Below, one piece after another: positions 13,361 through 54,634 of a DNA stretch of 64,000 bases. Each line of letters starts with the position of its first letter. The first letter of the stretch is position 1. The stretch covers positions 73,532,001 through 73,596,000 of the forward strand of contig OZ024741.1 of NCBI GenBank assembly GCA_964016885.1. The letters run 5' to 3'. The DNA comes from Eledone cirrhosa. Taxonomy: Eukaryota. Both the position numbers and the translations under genes were made by a program. The notes beneath the pieces were generated by a model. The model searched no databases and was not told the origin of the DNA. It saw nothing but the letters and a program-made list of their open reading frames with translations.

Positions 13361-13540
13361 AAATGACTTCTACAGGACTAGAACTATTTCATTCATATTA
13401 AGATTTCATACGAATGAAAGAGTTCTAGTCCTGAAGAAGTCGTTTCTATATATAATAAAGATGTATATACTCTACCAACGTACTGAGTACCTTTGTAACT
13501 GCAGTTGCCACTTACACAACTGGGGAACTTACATATTATA
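13361..13540 (+). repeat. Short foldback (13361-13445) plus 3' tail with bulged hairpin; probable PLE pseudo-LTR remnant
   Basis: GACTTCTACAGGACTAGAACT ... AGTTCTAGTCCTGAAGAAGTC inverted arms, then AATAAA, then TACTC-TAC-CAAC-GTA-CT-GAGTA at 13468-13489. Confidence 0.6.
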
Positions 13541-13840
13541 CATACATACACATATACATATGTAATATGTATATATTAATAAGAGGAATTCCAACTTTGT
13601 CTGATTTACTCGTTTTATTTACAATCCTTTAAAATATATATAATACGGTATTATAATGAAATAGTATGATAGAATATTAAATTCTAAGTGTTAATTGAAC
13701 AAGTACTTTTTTTTCAACTTATCGTTTTCGGTATGCCTGACCGATTTAACTCACTCAATATGCAAATTAGGCTGCTCAGCCGTTAATTTTCATAAGGAAA
13801 GTATATACTTTCGAACGTTCAACTATCTGGCAGATGGGTA

Positions 13841-13885
13841 AACGGTGCTGATGATAGCTAACAAGCTTGAAACTAGTACATCGTT
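13841..13885 (+). ncRNA. Minimal type I hammerhead ribozyme
   Basis: Stem I AACGGTG/CATCGTT; core CTGATGA (13848-54); stem II AGCT-AACA-AGCT; GAAA (13869-72); palindromic stem III ACTAGT; cleavage triplet GTA. Confidence 0.85.
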
Positions 13886-14329
13886 CCTGTGTCAGTGTTG
13901 AACAAAAAGGTGACGTGGTTGCCTTAACACCGTATGGCATAAATCAGTCTGTTCGCTTGTTTACAAACGGACAAAGCGGGCGTTATAATAAACGTTCGCT
14001 AAACTGATACGTACATATATATATGTGTACCTGTATGCATATATATATATATATATATATATATATATATGCATGCTACTGTACGTCTGTATACATATAT
14101 GTATGTACGTATACATACATACTTACATTTAAGTAAGTGCCGTACTAAGAGTGAGAAATGAAATTTCGTTTCATTATATTGCAACTTATATATATATATA
14201 TATACACTTATGTATTTATATATATATATATACATATGTATATATATATATATATATATATATATATATATATATATATATATATATATATATATATATA
14301 TATATATATATATATATATTATATATAAA

Positions 14330-14612
14330 TGGAACCGGTAAGGTATATTACTTGAACCGATAAGGTATATTTTCTTGGTTATGTCAAAATTTATAAAACA
14401 AACTTTGTATTTTATCTGATGAAAGGGTACCAAAGTTTTGGTACCATTGAAATATATATATCATAGCATAAATATGGTTTTATAAATATAGTTTCCATTT
14501 ATTAAATATCATTGAATATTATACTCCAAAAAACTTGTAGAGTGCTCTGGATCAGTTATAAACATTTATATTTGTTGAATTACCAACAAATTGAATATCC
14601 CTTTTGCTTATA
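14330..14612 (+). mobile_element. PLE pseudo-LTR fragment (family also at 21851-22135 and 43440-43900) between (TA)n runs
   Basis: Shares AATATGGTTTTATAAATATAGTTTCCATTT and the downstream tail with the other two loci; contains a hammerhead and the bulged tail hairpin (14522-14544). Confidence 0.7.
14408..14470 (+). ncRNA. Minimal hammerhead ribozyme
   Basis: TATTTTAT-CTGATGA-AAG-GGTACCAAA-GT-TTTGGTACC-ATT-GAAA-TATATATA-TC-ATAGCATA; stem I has one mismatch. Confidence 0.7.
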
Positions 14613-15810
14613 TACTATATATATATATATATATATACGTACACACACAGAGACATATGTATGTGGGGTGGGGTTAATTAGACTATAGGTACAGATATTG
14701 ATCACAAAAAAAAATAAAAGCATTGACATTTACAACTATTCCAAAAGTTTATATGTACCGGAGAAAAATATTGACATACAAATACACATATATTGTATAC
14801 ATATAAATACACATGTATATATGTATATATGTATAAATGTATATATGTATGTATATATATATATATATATATATATATATATATATATATATATATATAT
14901 ATATATATATATATATATATATATATACATATATATATATACATATATAAATATATACACACACACACATACACACACATATATATATAAATATGTATTT
15001 TTATGTATGTAATATATATATATATATATATATATATATATATATATATATATATATAAACAGACGCAAATGAGAACATTTCCAGTTAAGGATCATACAA
15101 TTGTATTGGTGGAATAATAATAACATCATCAGGTTAGTTTTGACGCTACACAAAAAAGTAACAATAGAACTCGTTTCCCACTGACGTATCGTATTTGTCG
15201 GCCATGTTTGCTTTAGTTTTCCTTCGACACAAAATTTGTTTCAAAAGATAGGGAATTAACAATGTTGACATTAGAGTATTTGTGTTTTCTTGTTAAATGT
15301 GATACCAGTTCTCAGTTACCATTGTCTTTTTTTTTCTGTTGATTGTAAAGATGAATTTTTTATCACTTTATATGATATATTTGCTAATGTTATTGGTTAT
15401 ATAGATTTATACGCTCCGCCATTTTGCTAAAAAAATATTTGTATTGGAAGAATAAAACATCATCGATATGTTTTTTTTAACTCTGCATCTGAATACCGTC
15501 TTATTTACATTTTTGTTTTGTTTTGTTTTAATTTTTCTCATTCTTCTGATTGCTTTAAAAGTCTCTCTCCATTCTCTCTCTCTCTATATATATATATGCG
15601 TGTGTACGCGTGTGTGTGTGTGTGTACACATACCCCTTCTCTTATAAAAGAGAGCAAAAGAAAAAAAGTGATGAAAAGACATAAAGTTGCGACTGTGGGT
15701 ACATATATATATATATATATATATATATATATATATATATATATATATATATATATATATATATATATATATATATATATATATATATATATATATATAT
15801 ATATATATAT

Positions 15811-51960: not shown

Positions 51961-52042
51961 GGCTTTACCGCGGTTTCATGCACCAGAATAAACGGAAAAT
52001 CCAAGCGGATTTCCATTGAGAAGGGAGCAATCTTCAGAAGGC
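51961..52042 (-). ncRNA. Hammerhead ribozyme with long stem II
   Basis: GCCTT-CTGAAGA-T-TGC..AATGGAAATCC-GCTT-GGATTTTCCGTT..GCA-T-GAAA-CCGCGG-TA-AAGCC; palindromic stem III ACCGCGGT. Confidence 0.75.
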
Positions 52043-53800
52043 TCTTCTCCCTCGGAGAATATAAAATTCCTGAGTTCAAATCGCAAACTGACGCCATACA
52101 AAACCATTCCCAAATGAGAGCGAATGATGAAAAAAATAATTCTGTCTGGTGCCGTGTGCAAAGACAAACGGCAGGGTGGACAGGTCAATGTCCTGCCACT
52201 AGAAATAGCAGCAGTCCAAACGGCCAAAATTTTATCTCTACCTTAGGGGGAGATCAATAATAATAAAGTATGAATTCCTACGCGTAAAAAATAAAAATAG
52301 GGAAACAAGTATTATATATATATATATATATAAATATAAATTAGCGAGAATCGTTTTCAGCTCAGGAATTAACGAAAATCAACGTCCGATATGTGTGGCA
52401 AGCGCTCGATGAATCATATGAATCAGAGCTACAACATACGTTAAGGGCCAAACACACTGATATATATATATATATATCCCTCCTTTTCACCGCCCACCCC
52501 ACACTAACAATACTAACACCTCCACTCCACCCCTCATCTGACCACCCTTCCCCAACTAACATACTAACATCCCTTCCCTCCCCTCTTCTCCTCCTCCCCC
52601 TCCTTATCACACGCACACACGCACCCACTTACACCACCCGCCCCACACGCAACTAACATCACTAACACCCTCCAACCCCACGCACACGTACCCACACACC
52701 CTCGTACACCACCAACTCTACACACCCTACCCCCACTAACCCCCACTCACACCTGCATTCCACCCCTCCCCACCTCCCGTATACTAACACCCACTAACAC
52801 CTCTTCACCAAACTACACACACACCAGTACACCACACTCTCTCCATAGAACCACACACACCCTTCTCTCCCCGCTCCACACTCACTCATCCCACTAACAC
52901 CCCTACTAATACACACACACACACACACACACACACACACACACACACCCTCCTCACTCCAACTCTCACACCTACCCATCCTCGCCTCCCTACCATTCCG
53001 CCGACTGCTGCTATGCCCTTCCGACCACTGTCTCAGCACCAACTGACCACAGCACTTCAACTGCTGACCACTTCCTGTTGCGCGCGCACCCCACATCTCT
53101 CCTCTTCCGACCACCGCTTCTTGGATTACCCACACGCGTTATTGACTTCTAACCAAAATCTCCAAACATCCGTGTAACTTACCAACTTTTCAACCATCCT
53201 CTTACACCATCACCTATATAACTCACCCACACACACACCCCCAAAATTTTTTTTTATCCACACGCCACCCACACCCACAACACGCTTAAACCACACACAC
53301 GTGCTTCCCACCACATATTTACACCCTCAGCCTCCTGATTCCTCTCCCCCCACCCCCCTATCCACACACGCACAGACCCTCCGACCCATAAAAACACCCC
53401 CCACACACACCTTCCTGAACATGCAACCCCGTTCTTCCCCCAACCCTCACTTTCACATACACACACACACACACACACGCACACCTAACCACACACACCA
53501 CCTTCAGCCCTCCCCGCTCGGGCACCCCGTCTCCCTCTCCCCACTCCACCCGCCACCACCCTTACTCACCCCACACCCTTCCACCACCTGTTTACCCCCC
53601 TTTTAATTTCAGTTTATTTTGATCATGCCTTTATTTTTAAATTTTCTCATTCCTTGTATTTTGATCATGCTTTATTTTTATTTATTATTTATTATATTTT
53701 TGTCTTTATTTGTTAATTTTTCATTCGCACCGTTTCCTTTCGCTATATGTCTCTCCACCACTCCCCTACACACCTTTTGAACTCTGTTACCACACACTTC

Positions 53801-53834
53801 TCACCTGAAGAAGGGCTTATGCCCGAAACGTCGT
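53801..53834 (+). ncRNA. Minimal hammerhead-like motif
   Basis: CTGAAGA-A-GGGC-TTAT-GCCC-GAAA-C-GTC: intact core and stem II, but stem I is only 2 bp. Confidence 0.55.
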
Positions 53835-54023
53835 CCCCCACCTACCCCCCACTCTCTTGAGCGTGAATTTAATAAACATTTATCGTACTGCCTCTCTGTT
53901 CTGTCCCTGTTCAATTTTTCATTATATATATATATATATATATATATATATATATATATATATATAGTTAAGTATTTCCGAAGAAAAAAAACTAAGAGTG
54001 ATCTATGTATAAAACAGAGCTAT

Positions 54024-54112
54024 TTAATTAGAAAGTGAACACAATGTATAACTACTCCATTACCAAAGGTAATGGAGTAGTTATATATTGTGTTGTTCAC
54101 TTTCTAACTAAC
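54024..54112. repeat. Short palindrome with minus-strand tail hairpin (54000-54020)
   Basis: TATAACTACTCCATTACC-AAA-GGTAATGGAGTAGTTATA. Confidence 0.85.
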
Positions 54113-54634
54113 TAAATACACACACACACACACACACACACACACACACACACACATATATATATATATATATATATATATATATATATATATATATATA
54201 TATATAGTATTAAGGATACTATTTATGGTTATGTATATACTAAAACTTTTTATAGTTATATATATTTTAAACCCTAAACAGTGAAAGTCAGTAATTTCTT
54301 ACTAGCTTATTACCAGTAAGATAAATAGCTCAATGTAATAACATCAGTTGTTCTACAGAGCAGTTATATAGAATACACAGGAATCAAAGCTATGTTCAAA
54401 GCATTTATTAGCTTACAATTGTTTCATCCAATAATTTTTAATTTTGCATTGATGTTGTATTTTAATTTTTATTGTGCTTTGATCCTGTTTTAATGTGATT
54501 TTGTTTTTGAACTTAAATTGCCATTCAGAAATAATATAATACATGTCACCCCACTGTACATCAATATATACATATGTATCTGTATGTCTCTCGCGTTGCA
54601 AAGGAGGTCATGTATGTGTACAAACATTGAAAAA

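What the first reader, a model, noticed from the sequence alone, without database searches (positions are those of the whole stretch)
13468..54361. Recurrent covarying bulged hairpin in the 3' tails of many unrelated hammerhead-bearing repeats
Seen: at least 13 hairpins share the fold outer stem ..TC / inner stem-loop / 2-nt 3' bulge (nearly always TN) / GA.. They occur in families with no other similarity. Instances: 13468-89 TACTC-TAC-caac-GTA-ct-GAGTA; 14522-44 TACTC-CAA..TTG-ta-GAGTG; 16195-217; 22047-69; 23909-30; 25810-36 TACTC-CAGT..ACTG-ta-GAGTG; 34970-91 AACTC-TAC-ttcg-GTA-tt-GAGTT; 35364-87; 43501-22(-); 45581-622 TACTC-TGGAGTA..TACTTCG-tc-GAGTA; 45737-62; 51847-84(-) TGTTC-TGGC..GCCA-ta-GAACA; 52404-29(-) GCTC-TGATTC..GATTCA-tc-GAGC; 54328-61(-) GCTC-TGTAG..TTACA-tt-GAGC. 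Damaged versions lie at 31934-55, 54000-20(-) and 30784-820. Outer pairs covary (ACTC/GAGT, GCTC/GAGC, GTTC/GAAC) and inner stems differ completely. Where an upstream hammerhead is present, the motif is on the same strand. Established: PLE pseudo-LTRs carry hammerheads and an optional short 3' tail. Inference: this is a conserved cis-acting RNA (or ssDNA) signal of PLE mobilisation. I do not know of a description of it, but I cannot search the literature.
Basis: partly seen in the sequence, partly recalled or inferred. Interest (0 to 1): 0.9.

Follow-up and report, generated by a model that had tools for sequence, protein, structure and literature searches.

The report
Twin hairpins mark retrotransposon start sites
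Hydra-type Penelope retrotransposons carry the same small bulged hairpin twice in front of their gene, their inserted copies end a few bases before one hairpin or the other, and the pair likely tells the element's reverse transcriptase where to start copying, which would explain the long-puzzling one-sided "tail" of these elements.

Summary
The hairpin is real: RYTC, inner stem-loop, 2-nt TN bulge, GARY. It gave 64 hits (25 sequence clusters) in 600 kb held out from the same genome, against 6-14 in shuffles.

Where an ORF could be linked, it belongs to the Hydra clade of Penelope-like elements (PLEs), not to PLEs generally. Full-length elements carry it twice, between the hammerhead and the start codon: 20 of 31 metagenome contigs (shuffles at most 1), 5 of 5 families of this genome, and one published consensus.

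Copy 3' ends map 0-7 nt before hairpin 1 (70) or hairpin 2 (64), of 157 junctions; 19 of the other 23 are read-through artefacts. In 79 of 83 inverted pairs one arm ends at each site (41.5 expected). So the known PLE "tail" is the stretch between the two sites.

Best reading (0.65): each hairpin is an RNA docking site that sets a reverse-transcription start just 5' of itself, one per cut target strand. Binding, RNA versus DNA, and a dimer are untested. Two Neptune-type families lack the motif, one despite having two ends. Ten literature searches and Rfam found no description.

The parts
13468..13489 (+). hairpin 1, long arm of an inverted pair
14416..14454 (+). hammerhead-like core about 75-105 nt upstream of the 14522 hairpin
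14522..14544 (+). hairpin 1
16195..16218 (+). hairpin 2 of the same unit (3-bp outer stem); the long copy at about 16725 ends about 17 nt before it, by eye
16621..16644 (+). hairpin 1 of the next unit of a non-coding tandem repeat of about 545 bp
22047..22069 (+). hairpin 1; inverted short arm ends at about 21850
23909..23930 (+). decayed hairpin 1 (outer mismatch)
25003..25885 (.). inverted pair: short end 25003(-), long end 25885(+); family tied to a Hydra-type ORF
25810..25836 (+). hairpin 1
34970..34991 (+). hairpin 1
35364..35387 (+). hairpin 1 of the commonest short family (32 hits in 1.33 Mb)
43438..43907 (.). inverted pair: long end 43438(-), short end 43907(+)
43501..43522 (-). hairpin 1
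45249..45667 (.). inverted pair: short end 45249(-), long end 45667(+); hammerhead core at 45477
45581..45622 (+). hairpin 1
45737..45762 (+). hairpin 1, separate insertion
51847..51884 (-). hairpin 1 (GTTC/GAAC); short copy ends at about 51410
52404..52429 (-). hairpin 1
54000..54020 (-). decayed hairpin 1; short inverted arm ends at about 54117
54265..54726 (.). inverted pair: long end 54265(-), short end 54726(+)
54328..54361 (-). hairpin 1
62399..63270 (+). 5'-truncated, broken Hydra-clade ORF (family A); its 3' end lies about 540 nt beyond the window, at the site before hairpin 1

Best explanation
Hydra-clade Penelope-like elements carry two copies of a bulged hairpin between the hammerhead and the start codon, their copies end 0-7 nt before one or the other, and each hairpin likely is an RNA docking site at which the element's RT-endonuclease would begin reverse transcription just 5' of the hairpin. 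SHOWN: the doubled motif, its position, its covariation, the two ends, and one end of each kind per inverted pair. INFERRED: (1) the template is a read-through (tandem) transcript; (2) two protein subunits bind the two hairpins; (3) the endonuclease cuts both strands of a (TA)n target; (4) each freed 3'-OH anneals to the short A/U-rich stretch before a hairpin and primes cDNA; (5) the two cDNAs, one per target end, join at their truncated far ends. This gives the outward-facing inverted repeat with a tail (hairpin 1 plus spacer) on one arm only. Hairpin 2 is copied only in read-through units. Short non-coding units that keep both hairpins would be mobilised in trans.
For: Two motifs in 20 of 31 metagenome Hydra contigs, with a 38-59 nt spacer, hairpin 1 52-71 nt after the hammerhead GAAA and hairpin 2 ending 15-42 nt before ATG; shuffles gave at most 1. 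The same layout in 5 of 5 reference families of this genome and in the published Hydra-1_Ajap consensus, which starts 2 nt before hairpin 1. Junctions: 70 at hairpin 1 and 64 at hairpin 2 of 157. In metagenome contigs 9 of 11 informative junctions lie -6 to +4 nt from a hairpin start. 79 of 83 inverted pairs are long+short, p=2e-19. The end follows the hairpin although the spacer varies from 44 to 103 nt. A TA-rich run inside family A's hairpin loop draws 1 of 92 junctions. The 10 nt before each hairpin are 76-81% A/T. In vitro, the related Poseidon PAc protein cuts and extends both strands, starts at two internal RNA sites that bound the tail, needs RNA 3' of them, and is predicted to be a dimer (PMC11167929).
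Against: No binding or priming was measured for any Hydra element. RNA over DNA is not shown: G-U against A-C was 5:1 (p=0.11) and 6:4, and the sense strand folded more stably in only 6 of 14 families. A Neptune-type family has two sharp ends (23 and 45 junctions) with no such hairpin, so two ends do not require it. By eye, the published PAc template and the 5' ends of Hydra-1_Obim and Hydra-1_Crog lack the exact motif. 8 of 31 contigs show one strict motif and 3 show none.
Confidence: 0.65

Rival explanations
1. The motif acts on DNA: the GIY-YIG endonuclease recognises it (as a hairpin in single-stranded cDNA or as a duplex site) and cuts just upstream when it resolves a longer intermediate, which creates the two ends.
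For: Craig 2021 ascribes the tail to endonuclease resolution. Frangieh 2024 reports that the D. virilis tail was needed for endonuclease recognition (the original paper was not held). The strand tests were inconclusive. The 3' flank ACT is almost invariant in the metagenome set.
Against: PAc start sites measured in vitro coincide with genomic tail ends. Pairing across a loop of 6-59 nt covaries, which a duplex site would not need. Both ends join (TA)n directly, as expected of priming.
Confidence: 0.15
2. The ends are set only by TA microhomology with the target; the hairpins serve translation, export or promoter function in the 5' leader and lie beside the ends by coincidence.
For: The bases before each hairpin are A/T-rich. 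Hairpin 2 lies a steady 15-42 nt before ATG. Neptune-type ends also fall at TA-rich stretches without this hairpin.
Against: TA-rich stretches elsewhere in the same leaders draw almost no junctions (4 of 138 outside the two sites). Both hairpins are kept in a non-coding tandem unit of the window.
Confidence: 0.08
3. The hairpins are RNA-processing or termination signals: transcripts are cut or ended just 5' of each, and ordinary 3'-end priming copies the two RNA species.
For: It explains sharp ends just 5' of a structure. Inference only.
Against: It does not by itself explain one end of each kind per insertion (79 of 83). PAc starts internally on unprocessed RNA.
Confidence: 0.07
4. Inverted arms arise by self-priming on an antisense template (Arkhipova 2013), and the hairpin acts on the antisense strand as a stop.
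For: Proposed in PMC3846280. About a fifth of family A arms begin at -79 to -61, in the hammerhead stem, which fits fold-back events.
Against: It gives no reason for long+short pairing or for target joins at both outer ends. PAc copies sense RNA in vitro.
Confidence: 0.05

Closest known systems
PLE 'tail' and the two internal RT start sites of Poseidon PAc (Frangieh 2024, PMC11167929; parts 1-3 of 4 read, supplement figures not visible)
   Same: Two start sites downstream of the hammerhead bound an optional tail; AT-rich target; RNA 3' of the start site is required.
   Different: That paper names one AC-rich stem-loop in one element, inside the ORF, with initiation in it. Here a covarying bulged hairpin occurs twice in the 5' leader of many families and the ends lie just 5' of it. 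The exact motif is not in the printed PAc template (by eye).
Hydra clade of Penelope-like elements (Craig 2021, PMC8557442; section 11, searched passages and parts of the supplement read)
   Same: ORF motifs, C-terminal GIY-YIG, hammerhead, (TA)n target; the motif is present in three deposited consensus ends.
   Different: The main text has no 'hairpin' or 'stem-loop' and ascribes the tail to endonuclease resolution. It reports a small number of families, whereas one family here gave 35,722 first-look candidates (not a copy number).
3' stem-loops of LINEs and SINEs (such as eel UnaL2) and the hepadnavirus epsilon signal (recalled, no call)
   Same: A bulged RNA stem-loop binds the RT and fixes where cDNA starts.
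   Different: Those are single signals; LINEs start 3' of the stem-loop and epsilon primes on protein inside the bulge. Here the start is 5' of the hairpin and the signal is doubled.
L1 twin priming (recalled; search found no application to PLEs)
   Same: Both target ends prime on the element RNA and give an inversion.
   Different: In L1 the second priming is occasional and by chance homology; here both sites are fixed and used about equally (70:64).
Non-LTR retrozymes (bioRxiv 10.64898/2026.07.22.740005; parts 1-3 of 5 read, supplements closed)
   Same: Tandem non-coding hammerhead units derived from PLE ends, like window 15900-16730.
   Different: No cis signal for mobilisation is named in the parts read.

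Membership tests
Hydra-clade PLE (carrier, P0001 family) | single ORF with RT and C-terminal GIY-YIG endonuclease | tested here: met
   710-aa ORF with the GIY-YIG-like segment at the C-terminus, read by eye; homologues carry PF26215, and the top hit PF01541
Hydra-clade PLE (carrier, P0001 family) | RWK motif, DKG changed to DKT, CxCx5C linker, no CCHH | tested here: met
   RWR, DKT and CxCx5C read in P0001 against Craig section 11; RW invariant in A2. No tree was built.
Hydra-clade PLE (carrier, P0001 family) | canonical hammerhead in the pseudo-LTR | tested here: inconclusive
   core found upstream in 15 of the 20 two-motif metagenome contigs; degenerate in families A and D; Rfam found no hammerhead in the window
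Hydra-clade PLE (carrier, P0001 family) | insertion into (TA)n | tested here: met
Naiad-clade PLE | N-terminal GIY-YIG endonuclease | tested here: not met
   endonuclease is C-terminal (definition); my first label was wrong and was dropped
Signal common to all PLEs | present 3' of the ends in other clades | tested here: not met
   absent in two Neptune-type and one Poseidon-like family (clade labels from recalled motifs); the searched 8-mers lie in hairpin context only in the Hydra file of Craig's supplement
Any Rfam family | match to a covariance model | tested here: not met
   131 matches at E<=1, all below gathering score, mostly microsatellite artefacts
RT-binding cis-acting RNA stem-loop (LINE or epsilon type) | binds the element's RT and sets the start | not testable with these tools
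   only the positional link was shown
RT-binding cis-acting RNA stem-loop (LINE or epsilon type) | structure selected on the sense RNA strand | tested here: inconclusive
   G-U:A-C 5:1, p=0.11; 6:4; sense more stable in 6 of 14

The most novel reading that the evidence does not exclude
Hydra retrotransposons integrate by programmed twin priming: a dimeric telomerase-like RT clamps two identical RNA hairpins and starts one cDNA from each end of a double-strand cut, so every insertion has two 3' ends and the hairpin pair is a portable signal for writing any upstream RNA into (TA)n DNA.
Probability: 0.45. Interest if true: 0.92.

Novelty: new variant of a known kind. Interest (0 to 1): 0.8.

Why it matters
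How Penelope-like elements, the sister group of telomerase, choose where to start reverse transcription, and why they insert as inverted repeats with a tail on one side, is an open question with one in-vitro study behind it. A doubled, covarying hairpin whose position predicts both ends across many families turns it into a direct test (mutate, restore or move a 20-nt structure). It also gives a handle for finding Hydra elements and their non-coding passengers, and this genome holds young families with intact ORFs for biochemistry.

Tried and rejected
Naiad assignment: dropped, the endonuclease is C-terminal. My early note that family A has no hammerhead was wrong; it has a degenerate core. My early reading that the Neptune-type family has one end was wrong; it has two.

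A general PLE signal: rejected. An obligatory circular template: not needed, since 8 of 22 (family D) and 4 of 14 (family A) ORF-side ends read through into a next unit (sample biased to full-length copies). A palindromic 3' flank as a dimerisation site: not consistent across families.

Searches that gave nothing: Rfam; Pfam on four window fragments; viral contigs; a Pfam GIY-YIG search of the genome returned mostly non-Hydra families; earlier scan findings. Sequencing runs: no RNA holder listed, no reads laid. No covariance model and no tree were built.

Literature: searches found no description of the motif. Pyatkov 2004 and Lunse 2017 were not held; subscription papers, Repbase and Dfam notes, the figures and GenBank file of Frangieh 2024, and the preprint's supplements could not be seen and may bear on novelty.
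Full report
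SETTING. The window comes from a 3.0-Gb animal genome rich in microsatellites (cephalopod-like by my inference, not identified). It is full of short repeat remnants inserted in (TA)n, many as outward-facing inverted pairs.

OBSERVATION. 13 of the 14 listed hairpins fold as described, three more were found, and only one of the three 'damaged' ones is real. I fixed the descriptor (RYTC, inner stem of at least 3 bp, TN, complementary GARY) and tested it on 60 stretches of 10 kb taken at round coordinates elsewhere. ACTC, GCTC and GTTC types gave 64 hits against 6-14 in ten local dinucleotide shuffles; 1-nt and 3-nt bulges gave 17 and 10. The 64 fall in 25 clusters, so the excess survives collapsing of repeats, and 48 lie 20-90 nt before a microsatellite junction against 13 after one. 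A looser unbiased scan showed a weaker excess, 224 against 132. In 1.33 Mb a relaxed descriptor gave 188 hits in 64 clusters, 19 of them multi-copy.

COVARIATION. To avoid circularity I dropped the pairing requirement. Among 90 multi-copy clusters, 17 of the 22 with a copy ending just before the motif have complementary outer pairs, against 18 of the other 68 (p=3.5e-5). At the outermost pair 9 are A-T, 6 G-C, 1 A-C and 1 G-T (p=0.004). Some of the 22 are mis-anchored. In metagenome contigs anchored on the 3' arm only (63 distinct; 7 arms without an opener left out), inner pairs 1-3 pair in 55/63, 37/55 and 25/32, each above all 5000 permutations, and the first bulge base is T in 61 of 63. Relatedness was not corrected for. 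Tests of strand were inconclusive.

CARRIER. An ORF fragment at 62399-63270 led to a full-length 710-aa ORF.

TWO HAIRPINS. A profile of 58 homologues fetched 78 metagenome loci. 47 with a match reaching the N-terminus were examined and 16 dropped (6 too little upstream sequence, 7 no N-terminal signature, 3 no start codon). Of the 31 left, 20 have two motifs in the 150 nt before ATG, 8 have one and 3 none; shuffles gave two motifs in 0.04 contigs on average (max 1) and the reverse strand in none. The consensus is GCTC-stem-loop-TN-GAGCACT. The order is hammerhead, 52-71 nt, hairpin 1, 38-59 nt, hairpin 2, 15-42 nt, ATG. Five families of this genome show the same order, with spacers of 44-103 nt and inserts of up to about 70 nt in hairpin 1. 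The published Hydra-1_Ajap consensus begins 2 nt before hairpin 1 and holds both; two other Hydra records end with hairpin 1; Hydra-1_Obim and Hydra-1_Crog do not show it by eye. In the window, 16077 and 16195 are hairpins 1 and 2 of one non-coding unit.

ENDS. With read-through references for the five families, 157 microsatellite junctions were mapped: 70 at 0-7 nt before hairpin 1, 64 at 0-7 nt before hairpin 2, 19 at the end of the query (read-through) and 4 elsewhere (families A and D supply 131). For families without a read-through reference, ends cluster just before the motif or at least 36 nt after it. Of 25 metagenome contigs with both terminal repeats, 9 ended with the contig, 4 aligned poorly and 1 read through; 9 of the other 11 end -6 to +4 nt from a hairpin start. 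Among outward-facing inverted pairs, 79 of 83 have one long and one short arm, 2 two long and 2 two short (41.5 mixed expected; p=2e-19; 4 pairs with a TA run between the arms were left out: 2 long-long, 1 mixed, 1 short-short). Four such pairs lie in the window. That the tail is usually on one arm was noted before without numbers.

LIMITS OF SCOPE. A Neptune-type family has two ends 68 nt apart and no such hairpin; a second has one mapped end and none in two read-through copies; a Poseidon-like family shows none (these clade labels rest on recalled motifs). So two ends are a wider PLE trait and this hairpin is the Hydra version of the signal. Many arms run through the hammerhead, whose core is degenerate in families A and D while the hairpins are kept; this agrees with the finding that PAc uses uncleaved RNA.

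MECHANISM. Shown: doubled motif, covariation, position, two ends, one of each per pair. From the literature: a PLE protein cuts and extends both strands, starts at two internal sites that bound the tail and needs RNA 3' of them. Inferred: each hairpin docks one RT subunit, the A/U-rich bases before it anneal to a cut (TA)n end, and the two cDNAs are joined at their far ends. I put this at 0.65; DNA-level recognition by the endonuclease at 0.15; microhomology alone at 0.08; RNA processing at 0.07; antisense self-priming at 0.05. The dimer could not be modelled.

NOVELTY. Rfam has no match. Ten full-text searches found no description. Read: Frangieh 2024 parts 1-3 of 4 and two supplements with no usable figure text; Cervera 2014 part 1 of 4; Craig 2021 passages, section 11 and supplement excerpts; the 2026 retrozyme preprint parts 1-3 of 5; passages of Arkhipova 2013, Schostak 2008, the curation guide and the 2019 ribozyme review. 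Subscription papers and repeat-database notes were not searched. It works like a known kind of signal (an RT-recruiting stem-loop) but as a doubled form not found in print: a new variant of a known kind, interest 0.8.

Noticed in passing
window 1-12344: Tandem array of a 63-bp unit, about 196 copies at 96% identity, open in some frames.
   Followed up: no
window 15900-16730: Non-coding tandem unit of about 545 bp with a hammerhead-like core at 16470 and both hairpins: looks like a retrozyme-type passenger of Hydra elements.
   Followed up: partly
window 51460-52310 (-): Tandem non-coding unit of about 490 bp with hairpin 1; no second hairpin seen by eye.
   Followed up: partly
L166 (minus strand, upstream of the ORF): Neptune-type family with a TTGA-AAA hammerhead variant and two ends 68 nt apart; both are followed by a similar short ATATAC/TTATAC-(T/C)CA stretch, perhaps that clade's own signal.
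   Followed up: partly
window 30245-30850: Inverted pair of a family whose long end runs into a start codon context like L180's; short and long ends about 75 nt apart by eye, without this hairpin.
   Followed up: no
L324-L373: Young Hydra family D with many intact 775-aa ORFs, in tandem and inverted arrangements; its hammerhead core is degenerate.
   Followed up: partly
family A arms, L294-L323 and others: About a fifth of truncated arms begin 61-79 nt before hairpin 1, inside the hammerhead stem II, suggesting fold-back there.
   Followed up: partly
window 45860-46600 (-) and 52480-53925 (+): 3' ends of a Neptune-type family with a canonical hammerhead core (53805) and a single mapped end.
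   Followed up: yes
window 38000-42750, 55100-60130 (-); 17700-18540 and 61076-62274 (+): Broken non-LTR retrotransposon ORFs with endonuclease and RT motifs, of two other types (types not tested).
   Followed up: no
window 24515-24700, 27440-27615, 28380-28550, 29120-29300, 49415-49580, 50570-50745: A repeated element of about 180 bp that looks like a tRNA-derived SINE, often inserted near PLE ends.
   Followed up: no
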